Below, piece after piece: positions 1 to 10,900 of a stretch of 21,459 bases of DNA (its first letter is position 1; each line of letters starts with the position of its first letter). Position numbers and translations under genes: made by a program. The DNA comes from Delftia acidovorans NBRC 14950 (GTDB lineage Bacteria > Pseudomonadota > Gammaproteobacteria > Burkholderiales > Burkholderiaceae_C): the NCBI RefSeq assembly GCF_001598795.1, contig NZ_BCZP01000045.1, positions 1-21,459 on the forward strand, given 5' to 3'. The notes under the pieces are model-generated. The model was not told where the DNA came from. It was given only the letters and a program-made list of their open reading frames with translations, and made no database searches.

Positions 1-1099
1 ACAGCGTGATGGTGCAATTGGCCAGCGGCGCCAGCGAAGAGGTGCAGGTGGTGGAAGACTGGGTGATGCCACTGCCAGCCGGGATGGAGGCCTTCACATC
101 GAGCGCAGGTGCCGTGCCGCTGTTGGTGACGCTTACCAAGGCGGCGCTTCCGGCGTTGAAAGAAAGGGGGGTAGCAGGGACGTTCAGCGTGGTCGGCGTG
201 ACGGAGCTGGCGACGGTGACCTGGGTGGACGTAGCTGAGGCGTTGCTGCCTGCGATACCGACAGCGGTCGGTCCTTCCGCTGCGGAGGCGGCCAGGATGA
301 TGGAGCAGCTGGAGCCTGCTGGCAGCGATGCCGCGCAGCTGTTGGAAGACACCGTGATGCCGCTGCCTGCGGGCACGGTGGCCCGCACATTGATCGCTGG
401 TGATGCGCCGCTGTTGGTGATGGTCAGCGTGCCTGTGCTGCCTGCAACGAACGAGAGGCCGGGACCTGGAACGCTGAGGGTGGTCGGGGTGGCTGCCGCG
501 GTGGCCTCGTCAGCCTTGGTGCGGCAAATGGTCTCCACGTTCACGCGGCACACGCCATTGGGGGCAATGGTGTCTCCCACCGCGCAAAGGGGTGGAGGCG
601 ACGCGGGCGGGACGCCGGGTGGCACGAGCTGGGTGAAGCCTGCAGGAAAGCACTGGTTCAGGTTCGGAGGCTGGATAGCCGTGATCCTGAGAGCCACGCC
701 GGAGCTGTTCGTGAAATCCTCTGCGGAGAAGCCGTCGATCTGTCCGCCATTGACAATCTGCGCCACGATCAATGTGCGTGTTTCCCCCGACGGATTTGTG
801 AAGCTGGCGGCCAGCTGCGCCCGCAGATCAGGGCTGTGCCAGAGACCGGCACACACGATGGCACTGGCCCACAGGGCCATGAAAAAAGCCCTGTGCTGGC
901 GGTTGCGCAATGTCAACCAAGCCGCCAGGGCCAGGCCCACAGCCAGGGCCAGCAGGCTCCAGGGATTGTCCACCGGGATCGGCGCTGCACCAACGACGGC
1001 AGCGGGCGCGACGGTGATGCTCTGGGCATGGGCTGCCAGGGGGAGATGGGAGGCCACGGCGACAGCCGCGGCGGCAGGTGCAGCGGAGATCTGCTTCAT
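1..1099 (-). CDS. Secreted/cell-surface repeat protein, N-terminal ~366 codons only (CDS runs off the left edge)
   Basis: Absent from the ORF track because no stop is reached. The reverse-strand frame from ATG 1099..1097 is open to position 1. MKQISAAPAAAAVAVASHLPLAAHA/QS looks like a signal peptide. Residues 41-70 (IPVDNPWSLLALAVGLALAAWLTLRNRQHR) are an IPTLxxWG-like motif plus TM helix plus basic cluster. Two ~95-aa repeats (TLSVPGPGLSFVAGSTGTLTITNSGASPAINV..C..LPAGSSCSI and TLNVPATPLSFNAGSAALVSVTNSGTAPALDV..C..LAPLANCTI) resemble choice-of-anchor-D/ASH beta-sandwich domains. An AT-rich region (1100..1190) lies upstream. The + strand ORF 6..1127 is its antisense shadow. Confidence 0.8.
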   Translation of the reverse strand, partial: MKQISAAPAAAAVAVASHLPLAAHAQSITVAPAAVVGAAPIPVDNPWSLLALAVGLALAAWLTLRNRQHRAFFMALWASAIVCAGLWHSPDLRAQLAASFTNPSGETRTLIVAQIVNGGQIDGFSAEDFTNSSGVALRITAIQPPNLNQCFPAGFTQLVPPGVPPASPPPLCAVGDTIAPNGVCRVNVETICRTKADEATAAATPTTLSVPGPGLSFVAGSTGTLTITNSGASPAINVRATVPAGSGITVSSNSCAASLPAGSSCSIILAASAAEGPTAVGIAGSNASATSTQVTVASSVTPTTLNVPATPLSFNAGSAALVSVTNSGTAPALDVKASIPAGSGITQSSTTCTSSLAPLANCTITL

Positions 1100-1190
1100 G
1101 GTATGGCCAAAGTTGATGCGAAGCTGAAATGTAAATGAAGTTCCTCAAGTGATTTCTATTTGTATCTATTGATATCGCGCAATCATTACG

Positions 1191-1998
1191 TTATAGCTTC
1201 CTGGGAACGTACACCCGCGCCGTCCACCGTGAACGTGTCTCGGCCACGGCCAGGGCAGCCGCACGGCGCGGGCTCGTTGTGCACGGCACAGCAGGAGTCA
1301 TGAGCACAGTTGCCGGATGCACAGGCGCAGCCAACTGCCAGCGAGGCGGGGTGTTGCAGGGCGAACTGGCGGAATCGCCAATGTTGCGGGACAGCACGTC
1401 GAGGGCACGCTTGATGCCCTGGGCGATTTCTTCCGCACGCTTGGGAGAGTTGGCGATGGCGGCACCGACGGCCGAAATCATGGCCAGGGCCAGCTAGCTA
1501 CGGAGGGAAAGGGACTGATGCATGCGCGTGACCTGTGGTGGTTTCGATCACGGCAGGGTGGCAGGCATGGTACGGGACCGGCCCCAGCCGGACGCGTGGA
1601 CTCAGGCCGCTGCGATGCCCTCGCTAAGGATGGCAGACAACTCGTGCATCACGTCCAGCTACCGGCACAGGCGGGTCTGCTCGGCCGCCTGCGCATGGGC
1701 TCTCGACTGTCGCCTGCCGACCCGAAGCAGCCATCCAGCAGGAGGCTTCAAAGCCGCCATTTAATTTGGCTGAAACGCAAGGCCGCCCGTCGCTCGTTCA
1801 CCAGCATGGCCGGAAACCCCTCGACCTCCTGTTGCCCATGTAGCGCGGATGCCGCAAACCATGCCATTTCACAAATATGTGCACTCATTGCACATAGGCC
1901 TGATCGGTGCGCACGCTATAGTGTTTGTAACGAATCCGCTCACGGACCTGATCAAGAAATCGTGTAGCGAGCAACACAGGAGGGGCGGCGAGTTTCAT
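1191..1998 (-). pseudogene. intI: Integron integrase (IntI) remnant with nonsense, frameshift and deletion lesions
   Basis: Reverse-strand ATG 1998 gives MKLAAPPVLLATRFLDQVRERIRYKHYSVRTDQAYVQ (cf. IntI1 ..[25 protein letters not shown]). A TGA at 1887..1885 then sits exactly where IntI has the conserved Trp. It is followed by VHIFVKWHGLRHPRYMG (cf. VRAFIRFHGVRHPATLG). Similarity continues only by changing frame: QQEVEGF..LVNER (cf. SSEVEAFLSWLANER), GWLLRVGRR.., RLCR*LDVMHELSAILSEG (cf. [20 protein letters not shown]), GLSPRV (cf. GLQLRV), and AQGIKRALDVLSR (cf. AEGRSGVALPDALER). There are in-frame stops, and the segment that should carry the box-I Arg is missing. Track ORFs 1191..1481, 1317..1967 and 1885..2100 are fragments or shadows of it. 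The 3' limit is uncertain, with weak traces to ~1130. Confidence 0.7.
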
Positions 1999-2139
1999 GG
2001 CTGAATTTGATACCGTATTTTTGCAAAGAATATGCGCCGTAAAGCTATGCAGCCTCCCTTTTCGCGTTCTCTTCGTGCCAATTGAGACCACAAGCGTCAT
2101 ATATGCTTGCGGTTTTTTGCGGTCTACACTTCGTTAGCT
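1999..2139 (+). other. attI-like region ending in the cassette-insertion core GTTAGCT (2133..2139)
   Basis: This is an AT-rich non-coding stretch between the leftward intI remnant and the rightward cassette, which is the canonical integron geometry. GTTAGCT matches GTTRRRY at 6/7 positions and is the perfect reverse complement of AGCTAAC at 2943..2949. A weak candidate rightward sigma70 promoter, TTGATA-N18-TATGCG, starts at 2007 (low confidence). Confidence 0.45.
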
Positions 2140-2994
2140 TTCACAATCAAGGAGAGTGTCATGCGAAAGAATTTTTTACTTATTTCCCTCATAGCCGTAG
2201 CACTCAGTGGCTGTTCCACATGGACTATTCCAGCCACTCCTGGAGATCCCAAGTCCGCACAAAGTTATGGATATAATCCGATTGACTCGCTACCAGTTAC
2301 GGTTTCTCCGGCAAACGCTACGCGAGAACAAAAACTTGAAGCCCTTCCTGACGAGACTATGCGGTTAGCTGTTGGTCAGCTCGATGGAAAGGCTGGAATT
2401 TCGTTTGGACCAGCTAAAGCCGGGGTGGCTGGAAATAGTTATGTTGTTATTCTTGATTACACGAAATTCACAACAAAATCATTTGGGGTAAAGAAAACTG
2501 CTGTAGTGGGTAGCGACAAAATTTCCGTTGCTTTAACTACAGTGCCCGATCCGGATGTTGTGGTGCCTGTTTACGTGGGTGTCGGGCTGCGACTCACTGC
2601 CAATATAACTGTCAAAGAAGGAAGTGTTGATCTTGGAAATTTGTTTGCATTGGGGGTGGCTGCCCAAGCAAAGCAGATATCCGGCACGCTGGTTATCCAA
2701 TCCCTTGGCCTGAGCGGAGAAGGGGTTTCTCCGTTGATTCCTATTCCGAGTGAGATAAATCCAACAACAATTCAAAATGCGCTCATGGCTATCGGCTCAA
2801 TCAAAGCCAAGATATACGACGGGAAGATCACCATAGTACCCCGCGTGGTCGGGGTCTATAACAATCTCGGTGGAGGCCAAGAAACGATAAACGGCTTTAT
2901 TTCCACAATCTTGGAGAAGCCTCTGACACTTGATGCGCAATGAGCTAACAAATCGTTCCAGCGGAACGCCTTCGGCGACCGCTGAACTCCAACG
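2134..2994 (+). mobile_element. Integron gene cassette (861 bp, one ORF plus attC), bounded by G|TT crossover points
   Basis: The 5' boundary lies inside GTTAGCT (2133..2139) and the 3' boundary inside GTTGAAT (2994..3000). The cassette holds a single ORF with its own SD. Composition drops sharply: 25/60 G+C in the first 60 nt of the ORF versus 42/60 in a phage sample at 3601..3660. Circularising 2134..2994 would rebuild an R' box (G+TTAGCT) perfectly complementary to R'' (AGCTAAC). Confidence 0.6.
2161..2943 (+). CDS. Orphan lipoprotein (260 aa), cassette-encoded, function unknown
   Basis: ATG 2161 lies 5 nt downstream of AAGGAGA (2149..2155). MRKNFLLISLIAVALSG/C has a basic n-region, a hydrophobic core and a lipobox LSGC with Cys18. 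Ser at +2 means no Asp inner-membrane retention signal. The mature part has no further Cys. The track ORF start at 2107 (TTG) is unlikely. I recognise no family. Confidence 0.85.
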   Translation: MRKNFLLISLIAVALSGCSTWTIPATPGDPKSAQSYGYNPIDSLPVTVSPANATREQKLEALPDETMRLAVGQLDGKAGISFGPAKAGVAGNSYVVILDYTKFTTKSFGVKKTAVVGSDKISVALTTVPDPDVVVPVYVGVGLRLTANITVKEGSVDLGNLFALGVAAQAKQISGTLVIQSLGLSGEGVSPLIPIPSEINPTTIQNALMAIGSIKAKIYDGKITIVPRVVGVYNNLGGGQETINGFISTILEKPLTLDAQ

Positions 2995-3000
2995 TTGAAT
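2943..3000 (+). other. attC recombination site (58 bp)
   Basis: Layout: R'' AGCTAAC (2943..2949, overlapping the last base of the TGA stop), spacer AAATC, then L'' GTTCCAGCGG (2955..2964). L'' pairs with L' CCGCTGAAC (2979..2987) over 9 bp with one bulged base (C2959 on the top strand, G on the bottom strand). The terminal stem-loop is CGCC-TTC-GGCG (2967..2977), followed by spacer TCCAAC and R' GTTGAAT (2994..3000), which fits GTTRRRY. The R''/R' AAC/GTT bases pair and the central spacers do not, as expected for attC. Confidence 0.65.
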
Positions 3001-3080
3001 GTCTGCTTCTCGATCCCACCAGCGACGGCTCATGGCCGTGAGCAGTCGGCTACCGTACACGCAGCAGGAACACCCGCCGA

Positions 3081-3590
3081 TCAGCGTGAGACGTTCGGCC
3101 AAGCATCCCTCATCAGCGCGGCGTCAGCGGCGTGGCCATCAGCCGCTCGCGCGATGTCTGCACCGCGCTCTGCCAGGCGTCCACCGTGGTCTGCCAGCTC
3201 TTGGAGTACGGTTGTGCAGGTGCTGGCGTAATGAGCGAGGGCGGGCTGGGCAGCTCCAGCGATGCGCTCGGGGAGGCCGGCAAAGTCGCCCCGCATGCCT
3301 GCAGTAGCAGTGCGCAAATCGCGCAGGCTGCGGTCGAGATCCTGCTGAGCCGCGGCGTTGCGCTGGCCAGCGGCCTGGAAATTGGCGAGTGCATCGTTCA
3401 TTCCTTTCTGAAATCCGGCCATGTCGCGCACGGCCTGCTTTGTGCTAGCCAATTCGGTGCTGGTCTGTAGGTGGCGCAGCTGCTCCAGCTGCAGGCCGTA
3501 GCGCTGGCCCTGAGCCCACCAGGCACCGCCGGCACCAATCGCAAGCGACGCAGTGGCCGCAGCCAAATAAGTTGAGAGTGGGCTGATCAT
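3081..3590 (-). CDS. i-spanin (Rz-like), 169 aa
   Basis: ATG 3590 overlaps the endolysin stop (ATGA). It has an N-terminal TM helix (ISPLSTYLAAATASLAIGAGGAWWA) followed by a long Gln/Ala/Arg-rich coiled-coil-like region. It is the last gene of the lysis cassette. The track start at 3650 is an upstream extension into the endolysin. Confidence 0.75.
   Translation of the reverse strand: MISPLSTYLAAATASLAIGAGGAWWAQGQRYGLQLEQLRHLQTSTELASTKQAVRDMAGFQKGMNDALANFQAAGQRNAAAQQDLDRSLRDLRTATAGMRGDFAGLPERIAGAAQPALAHYASTCTTVLQELADHGGRLAERGADIARAADGHAADAALMRDAWPNVSR
3113..3394 (-). CDS. o-spanin (Rz1-like) lipoprotein fully embedded in the i-spanin gene in another frame
   Basis: The translation is ..RLSRISTAACAICALLLQA/CGATLPASPSASLELPSPPSLITPAPAQP.., with a lipobox LQAC followed by a short (~60 aa) Pro-rich mature peptide. 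It lies wholly inside 3081..3590 in a different frame, like lambda Rz/Rz1. The exact start codon is uncertain. Confidence 0.65.
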   Translation of the reverse strand: MHSPISRPLASATPRLSRISTAACAICALLLQACGATLPASPSASLELPSPPSLITPAPAQPYSKSWQTTVDAWQSAVQTSRERLMATPLTPR

Positions 3591-4198
3591 TGCGAAGCCC
3601 TCGCCAGCAAGCCCGGGCTGAAATGCCCATCCCTGCCCCACTGCGCGCACAGTTCGCGCGTGGCTTCGCGGCGATCAACAAGGCCCGGCAGGCGCGTCGG
3701 AACGCCGTTGACCGTCCCGTAGACCCATCGCGGCATCTGCTCGCATGCAGCATCCAGCTGCCCTGCGTTGGCCAGCCGCATGACCGTCGTGTCAGGTGCC
3801 AGCGCCGATGGCACGTTGTAGGCCACGTCGATAAAGCTGGCCTGCACCCAGACGTTGTAGCGGTCCCAGTGCCGCAGCGCGCGCCGCGCCAGGCGCTCGG
3901 CCTCGTGGTACTTGGGCCGCTCCAGGCGTTCGCAGTCCTCGGGCGTGTAGTAGCGCCCTGCCACCACCTCGGGACCCGTCACGCCCGCGCAGACGGTCAG
4001 CGGCTGCCCCTTGCCCACGCGGTCGATGTAGGGCGTGCCGATGTGCCGACCGCTGCTCTCATAATGCAGCCCGATCTCCCGGGCCAACTTCACTGCAGGG
4101 CTGGGTCCGGCGTCCTGGGTGGCAACATAGCCGCCGGCAGCGGTGACGGCCAAGCCCGCAGCAGTAGCCAGGAGTCGATTGCGTAAGGTCTCGTTCAT
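3587..4198 (-). CDS. Endolysin, GH24 (phage lysozyme) family with N-terminal SAR (signal-anchor-release) domain, 203 aa
   Basis: The N-terminus MNETLRNRLLATAAGLAVTAAGGYVA is a weakly hydrophobic Gly/Ala/Thr-rich TM helix typical of SAR endolysins. HYESSGRHIGTPYIDRVGKGQPLTVCAGVTG fits the Glu..Asp..Thr lysozyme catalytic pattern. It is ATGA-coupled at both ends (4198/4195 and 3590/3587). Confidence 0.85.
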   Translation of the reverse strand: MNETLRNRLLATAAGLAVTAAGGYVATQDAGPSPAVKLAREIGLHYESSGRHIGTPYIDRVGKGQPLTVCAGVTGPEVVAGRYYTPEDCERLERPKYHEAERLARRALRHWDRYNVWVQASFIDVAYNVPSALAPDTTVMRLANAGQLDAACEQMPRWVYGTVNGVPTRLPGLVDRREATRELCAQWGRDGHFSPGLLARASQ

Positions 4199-4497
4199 CG
4201 GCCACCTCCTCCCACCATCAGGGCCTTCCAGAACGCGATGCCAGCCGTGCCGAGCATCACGATGTAGGTGATCGGCTTGGCCGCCTTTCCGATCCAGTTG
4301 AGCACGCGGAATGCGCCCTGCGCTGCCTTGAACACCTCCACCATTTCAGCCGTGTTGGCACGAACCTTTTCCGTGGCCTCGGTGTTCGCGCGCAGCTCTG
4401 CCTCAATGCGCGTCATGCGCGCATCCCCCTCGTCCAGCCTCGCATTAATGGTCCGGGCCGTATTCGGAGTTATTGCGTTTCCATAGTCGTCCTGCAT
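4195..4497 (-). CDS. Lysis-associated membrane protein (putative atypical holin or SAR-endolysin release factor), 100 aa
   Basis: ATG 4497 follows AGGAG (overlapping the upstream TAG) by 7 nt. An N-terminal ~70-aa charged coiled-coil-like region (RLDEGDARMTRIEAELRANTEATEKVRANTAEMVEVF) is followed by a single C-terminal TM helix (ITYIVMLGTAGIAFWKALMV). Its stop overlaps the endolysin start (ATGA). Coding is likely, and the function is inferred from position only. Confidence 0.55.
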   Translation of the reverse strand: MQDDYGNAITPNTARTINARLDEGDARMTRIEAELRANTEATEKVRANTAEMVEVFKAAQGAFRVLNWIGKAAKPITYIVMLGTAGIAFWKALMVGGGGR

Positions 4498-4505
4498 GAG
4501 CACTC

Positions 4506-5018
4506 CTAAAGCGTTACCGCCAAAACAAAGGCCTCGTCCAGGGATTCCGACGTGCCACCCAACTGCGCCCACAGTCCAGCGAGAAACGGGTTGCTGCGCT
4601 CCCAGGTGTCAGCCTCGTACTCGATTTCGGCCTCACGCATTTGCACGGGGTCCGTGATCGCGGCAATGGCCGCCTCGGCTTCATCGAGCAGCCCGAATGC
4701 AAGGAGCGCAAGACGCCCCTGGCGGCGCGTACAGGACCTCGGGATCAAAGCGGCGGCAGCCTCATCACGTAGACGCTGCAGCTCGGCCAACTCCTCGTCG
4801 GACAGAGGTACTACAGACCACTGCTGCCGCCAAACGCCGTCGATTTCCACGGGATCGATCTCGGCGGGCTTATGCGTGTCCGCGTCGTATGCGGGCGTTT
4901 CCGATGGCTCAACGAGCACATAGCACTCCAGATGCTGGGCCATCATCGTCATAGGGTGCAGTTCCTGGATCTGCGCGACGCTCAGCGGGTATTGCCCGGT
5001 TTCGATATTGATATACAT
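4506..5018 (-). CDS. Tail fibre assembly/chaperone-like protein with DUF4376-like C-terminus, 170 aa
   Basis: ATG 5018 (MYINIETGQYPLS..) lies 8 nt after the upstream TGA, with GAGGA overlapping that stop. The C-terminal region RQGRLALLAFGLLDEAEAAIAAI..AEIEYEADTWERSNPFLAGLWAQLGGTSESLDEAF resembles the DUF4376 pattern seen downstream of phage fibre genes (recalled from memory). The track start at 5066 is an extension. Confidence 0.6.
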   Translation of the reverse strand: MYINIETGQYPLSVAQIQELHPMTMMAQHLECYVLVEPSETPAYDADTHKPAEIDPVEIDGVWRQQWSVVPLSDEELAELQRLRDEAAAALIPRSCTRRQGRLALLAFGLLDEAEAAIAAITDPVQMREAEIEYEADTWERSNPFLAGLWAQLGGTSESLDEAFVLAVTL

Positions 5019-5026
5019 ATTGATCC

Positions 5027-5725
5027 TCAAATGACGCGGCCGAGACGGGTGCCGGTGGCGAGCCAAGTGATATAGGCGTTGCCGTCAACGTAGTAGCCTG
5101 CGGGTTGACCGTCTCCGGGCGGTGTTGTCTCCGAGGCTGATGCTGAGCCGCCGACGCCGCCCCAACCCCCAGAAAATCCTGACTGCCCAATTGATCCTCC
5201 ACTGCCGCCCGAGCCTCCCGACGCCGCCGGAGCTGTATCGCCGGGAAATATCGCCCCTTGATACTGATAGTCCTCCCCCCGCCCGCCTGACTGAGCAGAT
5301 ATCAACGCCACACTACCGGAGGCATTGAAGCCTGCACCGTTGCCCCCGCCGCCGCCAGAAGCGCCGCCAGAAGAGCCGTGGTACTGCACCCATGCGCCGC
5401 CTCCGTAGCCACCTTGACCACCCCCGCCGAAAATGGTGCCGTTGTTGGTTACTCGGATGGGTATGCGCGTGTACAGGCCCGTGCCAGAGTTCACAACACC
5501 ACCAATTCGACCATAGTTGATAACGTGCAGCTGGTTTGCTCCAATGCCGCTGATATTCAGACTAGCGACATCCACTCCTGAATTAATCGTAACTTGAATA
5601 AGTTGCGATCCATTCCATCCCAGCGCTGTAGCAAGTGCGGCAATGTTTGGACTGCGGACATTGGCCGAGACAATGACGTTTATCTGCCGTTGCCCGCTGG
5701 CCATCAACATACTTCGTGCAAACAT
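5027..5725 (-). CDS. Glycine-rich tail-fibre-associated protein, ~232 aa
   Basis: The open frame follows the fibre gene. ATG 5725 shares one base with the fibre TGA (TGATG). Alternative starts are at 5710 and 5704. An ordered N-terminal ~100 aa (QINVIVSANVRSPNIAALATALGWNGSQLIQVTINSG..) is followed by GGGGQGGYGGG..SGGASGGGGGNGAG..SGGSGGSGGS tracts. The C-terminus is YYVDGNAYITWLATGTRLGRVI. Confidence 0.65.
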   Translation of the reverse strand: MFARSMLMASGQRQINVIVSANVRSPNIAALATALGWNGSQLIQVTINSGVDVASLNISGIGANQLHVINYGRIGGVVNSGTGLYTRIPIRVTNNGTIFGGGGQGGYGGGAWVQYHGSSGGASGGGGGNGAGFNASGSVALISAQSGGRGEDYQYQGAIFPGDTAPAASGGSGGSGGSIGQSGFSGGWGGVGGSASASETTPPGDGQPAGYYVDGNAYITWLATGTRLGRVI

Positions 5726-6963
5726 CAATGCACCCCCGCATAAAAGCATTCCCAGCGATTGACGCGATTGCAGGTAAAGATGAGGCTTACCATCCCGTTA
5801 GCGGGATACTGCGGAAACGGCAGCAGCGCCCCCGTTCCGTCAATTTGCAGTCCTACGTTTCCTGAGAACGTAATTGCTCGGATTGCACCTGCACTGATAA
5901 CGTGTAGCGTCACTTCATCACCATATTGACGGCCGGCAGGCAATATGAATTGGCATGTCGCGTTAATCGTCACGACATGCACACCACCCTGACCAGGATC
6001 AACGATGTAGGAAGGGGTGCTGGCAGGGACGTTTACAGTCACCTGCCGGCCCATGGCCGTCTTGCTGGTAATCACCCGATCCCAGGCACTCCAGGTCGTG
6101 TCCTCCAGCACACGTTGCCATGTGCTGCCCTGGATACGCGACACATAGTCCGGCGTTGTGGAGAGCACTTGGGTAGCCACCTGTTTGGCTCGACCTGTCG
6201 CCCCTGTGGTCTCCACAAGCCAGGATTGGCTCCCGTTGTTGTATTCCTCCGGCGGCCAGTCCGCACCACGCCCAGTGGTGGTGGTCATCAGGGCAAAACC
6301 GACCAGCAACTCGCCCATCAACTTGGACTTGCCCCAAGCCTCTGGCGCCTTCGCGATTACTTCGCTGACACGCGGCGCTTGGTTACCAGTTGCGCCTTGG
6401 GGCACTTCAATCGGCCCAGTAAAGACCCCCCCACCCCTAGGCATGAACGTTGCCGGCAAATCCCCAACGCCAGGCACCCACCTCAGGACATTGCCACCCC
6501 ACCAGAACCAACGGTTGTTGAGATTGGGATCGATGCCTACGTTGATATACATCGCCCCCAGCTTGATGGCCCCGCCCTGGTTGTCAGTGGTCGGCGGGAC
6601 TGTCTTGGGGCCGAGCATGTACTGGTCAACCGCCTGTGCGCTGGCGGCAGCCGATGCCGCAGCGCTTTGCGCCTGATTCTTGAAAGCCTCCGCCGATGAG
6701 GACGCAGCCTGCGCAATCGCTTTCGCAGCCTCGGCCGCTGCAGCGGAATTTGCCGCCTGATTGCGATAGCTCATTGCCGCATCGGCCTGCTCCCGAGCAA
6801 CGATGGCGCAGGTTCGGCAGGCCACAGCAATCTCCCGCATGCGCGACACAGCGGGCGGGACGCTTGTGGCGTAGCTGAATGCCTCCTGGTTGAAATTGGC
6901 GCTGCCGAGCGCGGGATACTGCGAGATGGGCAGCAGGTCTGGGATGTTGACGATGTCGGTCAT
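5725..6963 (-). CDS. Tail fibre / receptor-binding protein, 412 aa
   Basis: ATG 6963 overlaps the upstream TGA (ATGA). It has an N-terminal attachment region and an Ala/Gln/Ser-rich coiled segment (AANSAAAAEAAKAIAQAASSSAEAFKNQAQSAAASAAASAQAV). The motif PPTTDNQGGAIKLGAMYINV..NRWFWWGGNVLRW is typical of proteobacterial phage fibres. The C-terminal domain is distinct. Confidence 0.75.
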   Translation of the reverse strand: MTDIVNIPDLLPISQYPALGSANFNQEAFSYATSVPPAVSRMREIAVACRTCAIVAREQADAAMSYRNQAANSAAAAEAAKAIAQAASSSAEAFKNQAQSAAASAAASAQAVDQYMLGPKTVPPTTDNQGGAIKLGAMYINVGIDPNLNNRWFWWGGNVLRWVPGVGDLPATFMPRGGGVFTGPIEVPQGATGNQAPRVSEVIAKAPEAWGKSKLMGELLVGFALMTTTTGRGADWPPEEYNNGSQSWLVETTGATGRAKQVATQVLSTTPDYVSRIQGSTWQRVLEDTTWSAWDRVITSKTAMGRQVTVNVPASTPSYIVDPGQGGVHVVTINATCQFILPAGRQYGDEVTLHVISAGAIRAITFSGNVGLQIDGTGALLPFPQYPANGMVSLIFTCNRVNRWECFYAGVH

Positions 6964-7910
6964 ACGTTGCCTTTGATTTGCAGGTCCACCTGGGCCGAAG
7001 TCCAATCGGTTGAGCGCACGGTGCCGGTGACCTTGCCCACAGTGGCCAAGTGCCCGTAGCGCGGCAGGTCGCTGACCTCAATGGCCACGGCCTTGCCCAG
7101 GATCTGGTCCAGCAGCGTCTTTGCTGCAGGCGCCTGCACTGCGTCGATGACGCAGCTCAGATTGATGTTGGTGGCCAGCCGCCCCTGCACCTCGGTGTAG
7201 GTTCCGTCCTTGCGGTCATCGACATAGGAGTAGTCGCGCGTGCTGGCCTCGACGCCGTACTGCGCGCCGCCCATGCGCTCGCGGCCAGGCAGCAGGAGCT
7301 GCTTCCAGTTGCCCACGCTGATAAACCCCACGGCCGCCTCCACCCCTGCGTTATTGCGCGCCACGGTGATGGAGATCTCGATGCCCGGATGGATGGGCAG
7401 GTCCTTGAGCACAAAGTAGGTGCCGCGCTGCAGGTCGCCGAAGAGATATTCCCACTCGCCGAATGCCTGCTCCCACAGCTGCGCATTGACAGGCGGCATC
7501 AGGTCCACGCCATCCGCCTTGACGGTGATGGTCAGCTTGTCGGCCTCCAGGCCGTACAGCGCCAGGCCGTTGACGAAACCAGGCCGCAATACATAGGTCA
7601 GCGAGGTGGCCCGGCGAGCTTTGGTGAACAGGTATTTGTCGAACGGCGCCATGCGGCTGGCGGGCGCCCCTTCGTCACGCTCCCAGAAGGTGGCGGCATT
7701 GGGCGTGCCTGGCTCGTATGTGTTGGCGGGCGCGCCCGCCACAGCCTTCACGCATTCGTAGGCGTAGCCCTTCCACACGCGGCGCAGGCCCACGGCAGCA
7801 TCCGAGCCACTGGCCCAGGCCACTTCGCCAACGGTCGCATCGACCTCGGGAATGGTGGTGCCGACCATGAACATTTCCGGCGTGATGGTCTTGGGCACAA
7901 GGATGTTCAT
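6960..7910 (-). CDS. Minor tail / distal tail-tip protein, 316 aa (function from position only)
   Basis: ATG 7910 overlaps the tape-measure TGA (ATGA). The frame is open with a non-shadow amino-acid composition. It sits immediately downstream of the TMP, where distal tail proteins are normally encoded. Confidence 0.6.
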   Translation of the reverse strand: MNILVPKTITPEMFMVGTTIPEVDATVGEVAWASGSDAAVGLRRVWKGYAYECVKAVAGAPANTYEPGTPNAATFWERDEGAPASRMAPFDKYLFTKARRATSLTYVLRPGFVNGLALYGLEADKLTITVKADGVDLMPPVNAQLWEQAFGEWEYLFGDLQRGTYFVLKDLPIHPGIEISITVARNNAGVEAAVGFISVGNWKQLLLPGRERMGGAQYGVEASTRDYSYVDDRKDGTYTEVQGRLATNINLSCVIDAVQAPAAKTLLDQILGKAVAIEVSDLPRYGHLATVGKVTGTVRSTDWTSAQVDLQIKGNV

Positions 7911-10900
7911 GCGATTGCCTTCCCACGCATGGCGTTGCCGCCGTTTGTGACACGGTCGAACTGCTCACCCAGCTCGGGCAATGGCGCCGTGTTGCGCGCA
8001 GTGGCCTCTGCAGGAGCACGCAGGCCCGCTACCTCGCCACGCAGGGCGCTGACCTCGGCCAGCAGCGCGGCAATCAGCGCTGCGCTTTCGGAGCCCTGAC
8101 CGCCCCCGCGCATGGCCTGGCCGAGCTGCTGCTGGTTCCAGTAGCGGGCCGGCCCGGTAGCCTCGACCTCCCAGCCGCGCTCACCCACAACACGCAGGCC
8201 GCCCGCGTGCATACCACCGCTGGCGAATGCGGGGAGCTTGATGCCGGTGATTCGCTCGACTTCAGCCCAGTCCCGGGCATACAGCCCCGACAGCGCTTCC
8301 ATGTCGGACAGCGTGGCGCCAGCACTTTGCATGGCGCGCATGAGCCCGGCCAAGTCGCCCGTGCCGTCATAGGCGTGGTACTTGTCAAACAGACCATCGA
8401 GCTTGTTGACCGTGCCCGGCTCAACAACGGACTCATACCAGGTGCCGCCGGAACCATCGCTGCGAGGCCGCAGGTACTTGGAATCCACGGTGTCAGGCTG
8501 CCCGCCACCACCCGGCCCCCAGACGGCACCACCATCGTTGGCGCCAGCGCCGGGCTTGGTGCCAGGCTTGGTCGCACCGGCGTCCTTGCCCAAGGTGGCC
8601 AGCAGCTTCTCGAAGTAACCCTGCACCGTGCCGGTGAGCATGGTGGTGCCGTTGACCAGCTCGTCGGCGCGCTTGGCCAGGGCATCCAGGCCTTCAATCT
8701 GGGACTGCAGGGCCTTGAGGGACCGTTCCTCGATGTTCAGCTGCGATTCACCCAGATCGCCCAACTCCGCAAACTTGCCCGCCCACACCAGGGCATCACG
8801 GCGGCGCTCGAAGTCGGTGGCGTAGACGCCCCCGGTCAGGCCCGAGCGGGTGGCCTGGATGGCAGAGCCCAGATCGGCATAGTCAGAGACCTTGCGGCCC
8901 GCGCGCACGCCCTGCAAGGCCTCCTCGATGTAGACCATGCCCCGCGCAGCCATCCACTGCGTGGTGCTGTCCACGGTGCCATAGAGATCCGTCGCAGCAC
9001 CCTTCAACTGCCCCACCGCCGCCGTGATGGCTGAGATGGATTCCTCCACGCTGCTCACGCGCTGCTGCAGCAGTTCGCGGTCACGGTTCACGGCACGGCT
9101 GAACAGGTCGTAGGCAGCCGATTGCGCTTCCTTGGCCGCCACCTGGGCAGCGCGCTCGTCCTCGATGGCCCAGATGCGTTCCTGCAGGGCGCGGTTGCTG
9201 GGATCCAGTGCAGCCAGTTCCAGGCGGCGCAGTTCCGCCGTATTGCCCTGCATCTCCAGCAGCTTGCGCTCCAGGTCGGTGCGCTGGTCCACGCGGGCGA
9301 TCTCTTCGCGCAGCGCCTGGTTGTAGTCCCAGGCGGCGCGCTCGGCTTCGCTCATGCCCTCGGTGGCCAGCTTGCGCAGTGCCTCGCGGTACTTGTCGGT
9401 CTGGCCCGTGGCGCGCAGGTACTCGGCTTCCAGCTGCCTGCGGTCGTTCTTGAGCGTGTCCAGCACCTGGCCGGCAGCATCGGCCACGGCGCCGAATTCC
9501 TGAGCCAGCGGAATGAGCTTGGCCAGCAGCTCCACGTCGCCGGCCGCCATGGCGTCCTCGATGAGCTTGCGGAACTTGGCCTTGGCGTCCTGGCCCATTC
9601 GGGGATCAATGTCGATCTTGAGGTCGGCCAGCGCCTTGTCCACCGCCTTGGCCGCGTTCTCGATGCGCTCCCGCTCGCTGTAGAAGCTGGTGTAGAACGC
9701 ATCCATACCGGTGATCAGGTCCTGGATGCCGCCGGCGCTCTTGATGAGCTTGGCAATGGCCTCGTCGCCCAACTTGCCGAAGTTGGTGATGTTGCGGGTC
9801 CAGCCCTCGATGGCGGCGCCCGTCAGCTCCACGGTCTGCAGGGCCGCGTTGAAGCTCTCCAGCGTGATCTCCTCACCCATGTCATCGAAGACATTGCGCA
9901 TCCAGCTGGGGATATCAGCCTTTTTCAGCTGATCGATCAGCGATCCGCCCATGTCGGCAATGAACTGGGCATAGGCCTTGGCGGGGTCCGTGCCAAGCGC
10001 GCCATCGCGCTTGGTGTAGCTGCTCAGGACCTCGCCGGTCACCTTGTCGATCAGCTTGAAGTAGCCGTAGGAATCCTCGTCGCCGTACTTCGGATTGGAG
10101 GCGAAGCCCGCGACGATATCGATCTGCTTGGCACTGTCACCGGCATAGCGCGCGAGACGCTTATAGACATCGGACAACGAATCAACGGTGGTGCCCAGTT
10201 GCTTCTCAAGATCGGCGTTGTGGCGCTTGGTCAGATCGTCATACCAGTCACCGCCAGCACGATCGAACAGCATCTCGGCGGCCTTGTCATTGCCCGCGCC
10301 CGTGGTGCTGTAGGCCGCGCCAACGTGGTTGGCACCGCGCGAACCAAACAGGCCGCCCTTGAGCAGCGAGAAAATGGCGATGGCTCCCGCAATCCAGGGC
10401 ATTGCAGCCCCCAGGCCGCTCATCAAGGAGCCAAAGCTGCTGCCGACACCGGCCCAGCTTCCATTGCCCGCGATCAGGGCGCCAAGGGCATCGCCGCCAG
10501 CCAGGCCCACGGCATTGGCACCAGCAAGGCTGGCAGCCGACGCACCAGGCATAAAGCCCCACATTGCCTGGGCACCTGCACCCAGCGTGCCAAGGTTGTT
10601 CAGCATGCCCATGCCAGCGCCGCCACTCTGGCCAGCCGCAGCAGGTGCGCCAAACAAACTGCCCAGGGCACCGCCAGCAATCTGGACCGTGGCCTGAATC
10701 AGCGGTTTGAAAATGAGCGTGCGCGCCAGATTCTTGAGGTACTGACCGAACGAGAGACCGCCCTGCATCAGCTGGTCGGCCAGGCTCTGGCCGATCTGGT
10801 CCACACCCTTCTGCCATTCCGAGGTGCTGGCCTTGGCAGCTTCTGCCGAGGCTTCGCGTGAGGCCTTCACAGAGGTCAGGCCCAGGCGCTCGCGCAGCAG

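What the first reader, a model, noticed from the sequence alone, without database searches (positions are those of the whole stretch)
1130..3000. Fossil integron: dead intI, attI junction and a single cassette with a textbook attC
Seen in the sequence:
(i) The reverse-strand N-terminus LDQVRERIRYKHYSVRTDQAYV is the hallmark IntI N-terminus. It is followed by a TGA exactly at the conserved Trp codon, and IntI-like similarity continues only across frameshifts, in-frame stops and deletions.
(ii) An AT-rich gap follows (1999..2132).
(iii) A divergently oriented, low-GC ORF follows.
(iv) Directly on its stop codon sits a 58-bp element with R'' AGCTAAC, an unpaired spacer, a 9-bp L''/L' stem carrying one extrahelical base (G on the bottom strand), a small terminal hairpin, a second spacer and R' GTTGAAT (GTTRRRY).
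(v) GTTAGCT at 2133..2139 is the perfect reverse complement of R''.
Point (v) is the signature expected because, after G|TT crossover, a cassette keeps its own TTRRRY half at its 5' end.
Established knowledge: integron architecture and attC structure (R/L boxes, unpaired central spacer, extrahelical bases).
Inference: this is a one-cassette chromosomal integron whose integrase has decayed, so the cassette is now frozen in place.
Basis: partly seen in the sequence, partly recalled or inferred. Interest (0 to 1): 0.8.

Follow-up and report, generated by a model that had tools for sequence, protein, structure and literature searches.

The report
Dead integron beside a Delftia prophage
This is a real but disabled integron (a gene-capture platform) in Delftia acidovorans that still holds one intact captured lipoprotein gene; such remnants are a known kind of element, and the less ordinary point is that this one sits directly against the lysis end of a prophage, as it does in several related prophages.

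Summary
The core of the finding holds. Window 1709-3047 is an integron remnant. It has the first 73 codons of intI with TGA at the Trp codon, an attI site, and one 861-bp cassette (2134-2994) carrying an intact lipoprotein gene. It ends in a 58-bp attC (2943-3000) and a 53-bp conserved array-end segment.

One part is wrong. intI did not decay through scattered frameshifts across 1130-2000. A single ~765-bp deletion removed codons 74-328. Positions 1190-1521 are the remnant of an unrelated gene.

Comparative evidence is strong:
- Relatives share attI up to exactly G|TT and then carry different cassettes.
- The same cassette, with the same boundaries, occurs in other arrays and genomes.
- A covariance model built from 15 independent attCs hits only 2943-3000 (49 bits, E about 3e-9).
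- A complete integron of the same family, with IntI 61.5% identical to IntI1, sits on a Diaphorobacter plasmid.

"Chromosomal and frozen" is doubtful. The module abuts the prophage lysis genes through a junction shared by at least three related (pro)viral contigs, so it is probably prophage cargo. Relatives with the same nested intI deletion carry other cassettes.

It is a new member of a known kind, of moderate interest.

The parts
1780..1998 (-). intI 5' fragment: codons 1-73 of an integron integrase, with TGG changed to TGA at 1887-1885 and a frameshift near 1837
   Evidence: NF011946 E 1e-22, TIGR02249 E 1e-14, PF13495 E 1e-15. tblastn gives 77% identity to residues 1-62 and a second frame for residues 55-73. 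It is 79% identical at DNA level to codons 1-73 of the intact Diaphorobacter intI.
1709..1784 (-). Remnant of the last ~8 codons of intI plus about 40-50 bp of conserved downstream sequence. This is the left edge of the conserved module.
   Evidence: Window 1784-1721 aligns to L004 3567-3631 and L180 7984-8048 at 71%. Homology with L021, L010 and L028 ends at 1708-1718. It extends to 1683 against L147.
1999..2136 (.). intI-attI spacer and attI. The imperfect inverted repeat AGACCAC (2085-2091) / GCGGTCT (2119-2125) is a putative IntI-binding pair. The crossover G|TT is at 2133-2135.
   Evidence: The region is 79-81% identical to the same region of L004, L010, L021 and L180. Homology in all of them stops exactly after ...AC|GTTA, with a different cassette beyond.
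2134..2994 (+). One 861-bp gene cassette, from the TT of G|TT at attI to the G of the attC R' box
   Evidence: The same cassette with the same TTAGCT...AACG boundaries and unrelated flanks occurs in L014 (Aeromonas salmonicida), L016/L017, L029 (inside an array, preceded by an attC ending GTTAGCT), L030 and L032. GC is 0.45-0.50 against 0.65-0.70 in the flanks.
2161..2943 (+). Intact 260-aa lipoprotein gene of unknown function. It has a lipobox LSGC, an AAGGAG ribosome-binding site at 2150-2155 and a TGA stop at 2941-2943.
   Evidence: No Pfam, NCBIfam, PHROG or PADLOC family matches. More than 450 homologues were found across phyla. dN/dS is about 0.1 against orthologous cassettes. The AF2 model has pLDDT 83, and only insignificant cytolysin-like fold hits were found.
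2943..3000 (+). attC site (58 bp): R'' 2943-2949, L'' 2955-2964, terminal hairpin 2965-2978, L' 2979-2987, R' 2994-3000
   Evidence: Custom covariance model R1 scores it 49.4 bits, E about 3e-9, over the full model length. The bottom strand folds at -13.1 kcal/mol, z = -3.5. It is 80% identical to the first attC of the L021 array.
2995..3047 (+). Conserved array-end segment, interpreted as the original right-hand half of attI, displaced by cassette insertion
   Evidence: It is conserved directly after the last attC in L021/L020/L023 and L004, and all diverge after about 3047. It is also present next to the Rz gene in L103, L110 and L142.
3048..3080 (.). Junction between the integron module and the prophage lysis end
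   Evidence: It is contiguous with the Rz 3' end and with the array-end segment in one alignment block with L103 and L110. In L095 and L105 the same phage sequence is followed instead by TIR-domain genes.
3081..4572 (-). Prophage lysis module: Rz-like spanin 3081-3590, endolysin 3587-4198, and the putative holin within 4195-4572 (called as 100 aa, 4195-4497, in L011/L012). Tail and head genes run to the right end of the window.
   Evidence: PF00959 E 1e-15. phrog_2466 Rz-like spanin. Gene calls in L011 and L012 include TMP_3 and GP38. 38 related IMG/VR contigs were found.
1190..1521 (-). Remnant of an unrelated gene (P0191-like, 238 aa in its intact form) with a TAG stop and a frameshift. It is not part of intI.
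   Evidence: phmmer against 1.8 billion representatives gave only P0190 (the same ORF) and P0191, 77% identical over residues 1-47.
1..1099 (-). 5' part of an 816-aa midcut-by-XrtH protein gene; this is flanking context
   Evidence: NF033207 E 2e-33. The full gene is in L012. Homology with metagenome contig L097 runs over 2-1258 and then stops.

Best explanation
Window 1709-3047 is a degenerate integron platform. It belongs to a Comamonadaceae integron family whose IntI is about 61.5% identical to IntI1. A complete member sits on a Diaphorobacter plasmid.

What is shown:
- intI is dead. It has a TGA at the Trp codon and a ~765-bp deletion that removed codons 74-328, which includes the whole catalytic domain.
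- attI and one cassette are structurally intact. The cassette was inserted by IntI-type recombination between attI and the folded attC. This explains why its 5' end (G|TTAGCT) is the exact complement of its own R'' box (AGCTAAC). It also explains why the original right half of attI now follows the attC, at 2995-3047.
- The lipoprotein gene is intact and the family is under purifying selection.

What is inferred:
- The gene is presumably expressed from the intI-attI spacer; no promoter was found.
- The cassette cannot be moved by its own integron. It remains a competent substrate for an integrase of the same family supplied in trans.
- The module most likely lies in the variable accessory region at the lysis-proximal end of a Delftia prophage or island, rather than in the core chromosome.
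For: Identity as an integron.
- The N-terminal fragment matches integron-integrase models.
- The close relative L004, once its frameshift is repaired, scores 463 bits on TIGR02249 (cutoff 265).
- An uninterrupted 335-aa IntI, 98.5% identical to that sequence, is annotated on Diaphorobacter plasmid NZ_CP049911.1. It has the same attI and two attCs.

attI.
- Six different loci share sequence up to ...AC|GTTA and then carry different cassettes.

Cassette.
- The same boundaries are seen in unrelated flanks and inside the L029 array.

attC.
- Model R1 scores it 49.4 bits, E about 3e-9, as the only significant hit in the window.
- In the training set the L stem is 89.6% paired and 6 of 9 pairs show compensatory changes.

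Array-end segment.
- It is conserved after the last attC in L021 and L004.

Deletion.
- The endpoints in four lineages are perfectly nested: L010 2800|3519, window 2798|3567, L021 2784|3585, L117 2727|3592.

Selection.
- dN/dS is about 0.1.

Prophage link.
- The Rz 3' end, the 33-bp joint and the array-end segment are contiguous in the window, L103, L110 and L142.
- L103, L110 and L117 also carry attI and intI remnants. L117 has two good attCs after its lysis genes.
- L142 ends in a tRNA-Lys 3' fragment 2.6 kb past Rz, which places its integron remnant inside that prophage.
- A copy 97.7% identical to window 1708-3032 lies between different flanks in L028.
- The [92-aa + midcut] block next to the module starts about 210 bp from a tRNA-Pro gene and is itself in another context in L097.
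Against: - The far end of the prophage lies outside the window. No att repeat could be identified, so whether the module is inside or just outside the prophage is not shown for this genome.
- The same junction could also arise if these phages integrate site-specifically next to the integron end.
- The module occurs without any adjacent phage genes in L021, L010, L028 and L004.
- The attI-intI fragments of the phage-linked copies L103 and L110 are more divergent from the window (66-77%) than the non-phage copies are (79-81%).
- No sigma-70-like promoter was found in the spacer, so expression is inferred.
- Model R1 was trained on sites picked by a rule-based scan that the window site also passes, and its E-values are rough.
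- Activity of attI and attC was not tested.
Confidence: 0.72

Rival explanations
1. This is a sedentary chromosomal integron fossil. The integron is ancestral in the Delftia chromosome, its integrase decayed, and a prophage later integrated next to the end of the array, possibly using a site at the integron's outer edge.
For: The module occurs in chromosomes without adjacent phage genes (L021 in D. acidovorans CP022656, L010 in A. kalamii). Homology with a related prophage (L095) stops at about 3050-3061, right at the module edge. Site-specific integration would reproduce the same junction in independent lysogens.
Against: The flanks of the module differ in every genome examined, even for the 97.7%-identical copy in L028. 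It is therefore not at a conserved chromosomal locus. In L142 the integron remnant is followed by 2.6 kb and then a tRNA-Lys attR-like fragment, so it is internal there. Related prophages carry other cargo (TIR genes) at exactly the same point, as expected of a phage accessory region.
Confidence: 0.25
2. There is no integron. This is a lone cassette inserted at a secondary (non-att) GTT site, or a chance palindrome downstream of a horizontally acquired gene.
For: Single cassettes outside integrons do occur. The orthologous cassette in Aeromonas salmonicida (L014) has no integron nearby. IntI-mediated insertion outside att sites is described in preprint 10.1101/2022.09.11.507474.
Against: Here the cassette abuts an attI that is 79-81% identical to that of a complete integron, next to an intI fragment in the canonical divergent orientation. 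The attC model hit is highly significant and unique in the window.
Confidence: 0.02
3. The cassette is truly frozen. The different cassettes in relatives reflect independent intI deletions that each happened after the arrays had diverged, not cassette turnover after intI was lost.
For: The deletion endpoints are not identical between lineages. L103 may retain intI sequence up to L004 position 2839, beyond the other left endpoints. No intact intI was looked for elsewhere in this genome.
Against: Four endpoint pairs are perfectly nested, with left endpoints within 2-3 bp in the window and L010. This fits one ancestral deletion followed by erosion. The chance of full nesting for four independent deletions is roughly 1 in 24 (my own estimate). 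An intact IntI of the family circulates on a Comamonadaceae plasmid.
Confidence: 0.35

Closest known systems
Integrons with an inactivated integrase, and attC clusters lacking an integrase (CALIN), e.g. Xanthomonas chromosomal integrons and the intI pseudogenes near CALINs reported by Cury et al. 2016 (PMC4889954)
   Same: A decayed intI next to a retained attI and cassettes with recognisable attC sites. The cassette gene is of unknown function. Low GC relative to the host.
   Different: There is only one attC, and IntegronFinder's CALIN class needs two or more (from memory of the tool's defaults, not run here). The decay is one large deletion. The module is not at a conserved chromosomal locus; it moves between contexts and abuts a prophage.
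Complete integron on Diaphorobacter sp. HDW4A plasmid NZ_CP049911.1 (IntI WP_166312465.1)
   Same: Same family. attI and the first 73 codons of intI are 79% identical at DNA level to the window, the architecture is the same divergent one, and the crossover point ...AC|GTTA is the same.
   Different: There the IntI is an intact 335-aa protein, with two attCs detected by model R1, on a plasmid. The window lacks codons 74-328 and has one different cassette.
Class 1 integron (IntI1 / attI1 / 3'-conserved segment)
   Same: Overall logic: divergent intI and cassettes, attI crossover at G|TT, and a conserved segment after the last attC. The repaired relative IntI is 61.5% identical to IntI1.
   Different: It is not class 1. 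Identity is only about 61%, the attI is different, and no Tn402, qacEdelta1 or sul1 features are present. No resistance gene is carried.
Integrons and CALINs in phage and prophage genomes (Qi et al. 2023, PMC9892861)
   Same: An integron component lies at the edge of a prophage. Possible capture from a host integron or carriage as cargo is discussed there for Vibrio anguillarum and Shewanella prophages.
   Different: Here the same phage-integron junction recurs in several related Comamonadaceae (pro)phages with different cassettes. The integrase is deleted in all phage-linked copies.

Membership tests
Integron (functional platform) | intI encoding a tyrosine recombinase with the IntI-specific additional domain and catalytic residues | tested here: not met
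   Only codons 1-73 (with a TGA and a frameshift) and the last ~8 codons remain. tblastn with a full-length relative finds nothing for residues 74-328.
Integron (functional platform) | attI site adjacent to intI, with the cassette junction at G|TT | tested here: met
   Homology to six related loci, including a complete integron, ends exactly at ...AC|GTTA (2133-2136). Each locus has a different cassette beyond. Binding and recombination were not tested.
Integron (functional platform) | Cassette promoter Pc in intI or attI | tested here: inconclusive
   The consensus scan found no sigma-70-like site on the + strand in 1650-2160. The scan is crude and Pc variants are often weak.
Integron (functional platform) | At least one cassette with an attC, in the orientation opposite to intI | tested here: met
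   Cassette 2134-2994 (+) against intI (-). attC scores 49.4 bits, E about 3e-9.
attC recombination site | R''/R' boxes ending ...AAC and starting GTT..., with R'' complementary to the cassette's own 5' end | tested here: met
   AGCTAAC at 2943-2949, GTTGAAT at 2994-3000, and GTTAGCT at 2133-2139 is the exact reverse complement. R'' departs from RYYYAAC at position 2.
attC recombination site | L''/L' stem with an extrahelical base on the bottom strand, unpaired spacers and a variable terminal structure; length 57-141 bp | tested here: met
   A 9-bp stem with one bulged C on the top strand (G on the bottom strand), spacers of 5 and 6 nt, a GCC/GGC hairpin, and 58 bp in total. A second extrahelical base (T) was not resolved.
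attC recombination site | Recombination by IntI as a folded bottom strand | not testable with these tools
   Needs an in vivo or in vitro recombination assay.
Mobile gene cassette | The same unit found with identical boundaries in different arrays or contexts | tested here: met
   Found in L029 (inside a four-attC array), L030, L032, L016/L017, L014 and L028.
Class 1 integron | IntI1 (>98% identity), attI1, 5'-CS/3'-CS | tested here: not met
   The family's IntI is 61.5% identical to IntI1 over 328 residues.
Prophage accessory (moron) region | Location between the last conserved phage module and the att site, with variable content among related phages | tested here: inconclusive
   Content after Rz varies among related phages: integron remnants in the window, L103, L110, L142 and L117, and TIR genes in L095 and L105. 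An attR-like tRNA fragment was seen only in L142. The att sites of the window's own prophage were not found.

The most novel reading that the evidence does not exclude
A lineage of temperate Comamonadaceae phages carries, just after its lysis genes, an integron platform without an integrase (attI, a cassette array and the array-end segment). Its cassettes have been exchanged repeatedly since the integrase was lost, using an IntI supplied in trans by plasmid-borne integrons of the same family. The phage would then act as a vehicle that shuttles an attI docking site and its cargo between hosts.
Probability: 0.3. Interest if true: 0.6.

Novelty: new member of a known kind. Interest (0 to 1): 0.4.

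Why it matters
Taken alone, the locus adds one more decayed integron, which is an expected kind of object. Three things give it some value.

- It defines, with a complete plasmid-borne reference, a non-class-1 integron family in Comamonadaceae. Its remnants are scattered in Delftia and Acidovorax genomes and in sewage metagenomes.
- It offers a clean natural test of whether an attI/attC platform stays in use after its own integrase is lost. Nested deletions of the integrase co-occur with different cassettes.
- It links an integron platform to a recurring position in a prophage family. This bears on how cassettes and attI sites travel between hosts.

The cassette protein is a widespread, conserved lipoprotein family with no annotation.

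Tried and rejected
- The genome-contig scan with the 73-aa IntI fragment gave only three distant loci and no orthologues.
- An exact look-up of the 71-aa ORF found only two short contigs.
- Megablast of 3001-9000 against sequenced phages gave no match.
- The attI pattern searched in IMG/VR gave no exact match.
- I tried to reach the far (integrase) end of the related proviruses with the L010 integrase. This returned one unrelated contig.
- The tRNA-Lys core search found only one end of the L142 contig. No prophage could therefore be shown bounded on both sides.
- tblastx and blastn of 1100-1730 against all loci gave only compositional noise.
- A candidate 24-nt direct repeat (1478-1501 / 3030-3053, 71%) and possible terminal inverted repeats at the module edges were considered. 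I dropped them as not better than chance.
- The structure search of the lipoprotein against PDB gave no significant match. The best hits were cholesterol-dependent cytolysins at E 0.06-0.2 and TM about 0.24.
- PHROGs and PADLOC gave nothing for the lipoprotein.
- The promoter scan found no Pc candidate.
Full report
SOURCE AND LAYOUT. The window is a whole 21,459-bp contig of Delftia acidovorans. The same locus occurs in KN046795.1 and OZ338672.1. From left to right it contains:
- the 5' part of an 816-aa midcut-by-XrtH protein gene, 1-1099 on the minus strand;
- a GC-rich stretch, 1130-1708;
- the integron remnant, 1709-3047;
- from 3081 to the right end, a siphovirus-type prophage read on the minus strand. 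It has an Rz-like spanin, an endolysin (PF00959), a holin, tail fibres and a 1658-aa tape-measure protein.

CHECK OF THE OBSERVATION.
- The minus-strand peptide starting at ATG 1998 matches the integron-integrase models NF011946 (E 1e-22) and TIGR02249 (E 1e-14).
- The stop at 1887-1885 is TGA where relatives have TGG.
- The low-GC spacer, the divergent low-GC ORF, the 58-bp element beginning on the stop codon, and the exact complementarity of GTTAGCT (2133-2139) to R'' AGCTAAC (2943-2949) are all as described.

One claim fails: that IntI similarity continues down to 1130 through frameshifts and stops.
- tblastn with a full-length relative matches residues 1-73 only.
- At DNA level, window 2136-1782 aligns to codons 1-73 of an intact gene. 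Window 1784-1721 then aligns directly to its last 8 codons and about 40 bp downstream. One deletion of about 765 bp therefore removed codons 74-328, which is the whole catalytic domain.
- The stretch 1190-1521 is the remnant of a different gene. An exhaustive phmmer search found only the ORF itself and a 238-aa protein, P0191, whose reading frame is followed in the window across a TAG and a frameshift.

THE INTEGRON FAMILY. The closest relatives of the N-terminal fragment are all short ORFs in Delftia, Acidovorax and Paracidovorax.
- Sewage-metagenome contigs (L004-L009) carry a full-length gene with one frameshift. Once repaired, it scores 463 bits on TIGR02249 against a cutoff of 265.
It has the same attI and two attCs.
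- IntI1 is 61.5% identical. This is therefore a distinct, non-class-1 family with at least one complete member.

attI. The window, L004, L005-L009, L010 (A. kalamii), L021 (D. acidovorans CP022656) and L180 share the intI-attI spacer at 79-81% identity to the window. In every case the homology stops after ...AC|GTTA, and each locus continues with a different cassette. This is the comparative signature of an attI crossover point. It places the junction at 2133-2135.

THE CASSETTE. The 260-aa lipoprotein has more than 450 homologues and no Pfam, NCBIfam, PHROG or PADLOC family.
- Its closest relatives (83-98% identity) sit in unrelated contexts but share the same unit boundaries, TTAGCT...AACG|TT. 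These are Aeromonas salmonicida (L014), metagenome contigs L016/L017, L028, L030 and L032, and L029. In L029 the cassette lies inside a four-attC array, and the preceding attC ends in GTTAGCT.
- More distant homologues carry other attCs. In L035 and L036 the same cassette has different sequence after its GTT. Others, in Bacteroidota and elsewhere, have no attC and end in terminators.
- dN/dS against five orthologous cassettes is 0.09-0.20, so the family is under purifying selection. The window copy has no internal stop codon.
- An AlphaFold model (pLDDT 83) has no significant PDB neighbour. The best, insignificant, hits are cholesterol-dependent cytolysins.

attC. The bottom strand folds at -13.1 kcal/mol, z = -3.5. 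IntegronFinder was not available, so I built a substitute model.
- I collected 15 attCs from other cassettes in related arrays. None came from the lipoprotein cassette.
- I aligned them and imposed the R/L-box structure. The L stem is 89.6% paired and 6 of 9 pairs show changes on both sides; every slid control collapses.
- Searching the window without filters gave one significant hit, at 2943-3000 on the + strand. It scores 49.4 bits, E about 3e-9, over the full model length. The next best hit has E 0.9.
- Caveats: the training sites were picked by a rule-based scan that the window site also passes, and the calibration is rough.
- Orthologous cassettes score from 59 bits (L029) down to nothing (Aeromonas L014). 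The window's attC is therefore among the better preserved.

ARRAY END. The 53-54 bp after the GTT of R' (2994/2995-3047) are conserved directly after the last attC in L021/L020/L023 and in L004, and all diverge after that. The simplest reading is that this is the original right half of attI, pushed outward by cassette insertion. The conserved module is thus 1709-3047.
- A copy 97.7% identical over 1708-3032, with the same cassette, lies between entirely different flanks in soil contig L028.
- The flanks also differ in L021, L010 and L004.
- The module is therefore not at a fixed chromosomal locus.

RELATION TO THE PROPHAGE. Only 33 bp separate the module from the stop codon of the Rz-like gene.
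- Among related IMG/VR (pro)viral contigs, L103/L140, L110/L147 and L142 show the same contiguous block: Rz 3' end, the 33-bp joint, then the array-end segment.
- L103 and L110 go on to attI and intI remnants.
- L117, a more distant phage (endolysin 52% identical), has a three-gene array with two good attCs (53.6 and 32.7 bits), attI and an intI stub after its lysis genes.
- L142 ends 2.6 kb past Rz in a tRNA-Lys(UUU) 3' fragment of the attR type. Its integron remnant is therefore internal to that prophage. This tRNA end is a frequent terminus of viral contigs.
- Other relatives (L095, L105) carry TIR-domain genes at exactly the same point, as expected of a variable accessory region.
- On the other side, homology with contig L097 runs from the midcut gene to window 1258. 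It is then replaced by other genes plus short Rz-3' fragments.
- The [92-aa + midcut] block begins about 210 bp from a tRNA-Pro gene in L012 and is itself in another context in L097.

Together these results favour the module being cargo at the lysis-proximal end of a prophage or island. The far end of this prophage is outside the window, however, and no att repeat was found. Site-specific integration next to the integron end remains possible. The module also exists without phage neighbours. The phage-linked copies L103 and L110 are more diverged from the window than the non-phage copies are.

IS IT FROZEN? Expressed in the coordinates of the full-length gene, the deletion endpoints are 2800|3519 (L010), 2798|3567 (window and L028), 2784|3585 (L021) and 2727|3592 (L117). 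These are perfectly nested. That fits one old deletion followed by erosion, yet each lineage has different cassettes at the same attI. Either cassettes kept turning over with an IntI supplied in trans, and an intact one circulates on a Comamonadaceae plasmid, or the deletions recurred independently. L103 may retain slightly more of intI, which would favour recurrence. I could not decide between these.

COMPARISON WITH WHAT IS KNOWN.
- Decayed intI genes next to cassette arrays, and attC clusters without an integrase, are established. Cury et al. 2016 found intI pseudogenes near 15 of 279 CALINs (PMC4889954).
- Integron parts in phages and prophages have been reported (PMC9892861).
- Cassette insertion outside att sites has been reported (preprint 10.1101/2022.09.11.507474). 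This would account for the lone Aeromonas copy.
- The attC anatomy used here (R and L boxes, unpaired spacers, extrahelical bases, bottom-strand folding) is established knowledge of integron recombination and was not re-derived.

VERDICT. This is a genuine integron fossil with one textbook cassette. It is a new member of a known kind. Interest is moderate, mainly for the recurring prophage junction and for the evidence of cassette turnover on integrase-less platforms.

Noticed in passing
window 1190-1521 (-): Pseudogene remnant of a 238-aa protein (P0191) that has almost no relatives among 1.8 billion representative proteins. The C-terminal half of P0191 weakly resembles Rz-like spanins (phrog_13, E 0.003).
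   Followed up: partly
window 1-1099 (-), continuing in L012 6489-8939: An 816-aa midcut-by-XrtH protein gene with internal ~290-bp repeats. Together with a 92-aa gene it forms a block that starts about 210 bp from a tRNA-Pro gene in L012 and sits in a different context in metagenome contig L097. It may itself be island cargo.
   Followed up: partly
window 2161-2943 (+): The cassette lipoprotein belongs to a large unannotated family (>450 hits, from Proteobacteria to Bacteroidota and Planctomycetota) under purifying selection. The AF2 model is confident (pLDDT 83), with long beta-hairpins and only weak cytolysin-like fold hits. It is a candidate new family.
   Followed up: partly
L095 7418-11105 and L105/L146: Related Delftia prophages carry a cluster of TIR-domain genes (ThsB_TIR, TIR_2, LD_cluster2) at exactly the position where the window has the integron module. 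This suggests a cargo hot spot after the lysis genes.
   Followed up: no
L004-L009 (sewage metagenomes): An integron of this family whose intI carries a single frameshift (91-aa and 242-aa ORFs) is indexed in 79 blocks of the collection, with at least two different first cassettes. It was not checked whether the frameshift is real, an assembly artefact or tolerated.
   Followed up: no
L014 6001-6850 (Aeromonas salmonicida CM142686.1): The same lipoprotein cassette (92% aa identity) sits alone between a sigma-54 activator gene and an AI-2E transporter gene, with cassette boundaries intact but an attC too degenerate for the model. It looks like a cassette inserted outside any integron.
   Followed up: partly
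L010 12865-14029 (Acidovorax kalamii): A phage-type integrase next to tRNA-Lys(UUU) lies 2.6 kb from the intI remnant. The integron's orientation relative to the att/int end is opposite to that in the window's prophage, and this is not explained.
   Followed up: no
L001 11363-19945 (Gemmatimonadales MAG): A large cassette array with at least 15 very homogeneous 135-140-bp attC sites lies next to an IntI relative. This is a sedentary-type integron in Gemmatimonadota.
   Followed up: no
window 5400-6000: GC drops to about 0.50-0.54 over the tail-fibre genes (5027-7005, minus strand), against 0.62-0.70 around them. This is consistent with a mosaic host-range module.
   Followed up: no
L097 853-1115: Two separate short copies of the Rz 3' end (matching window 3076-3165) lie next to an HNH gene, about 2.4 kb from the midcut gene. 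They look like debris of a related prophage at the same relative position.
   Followed up: no
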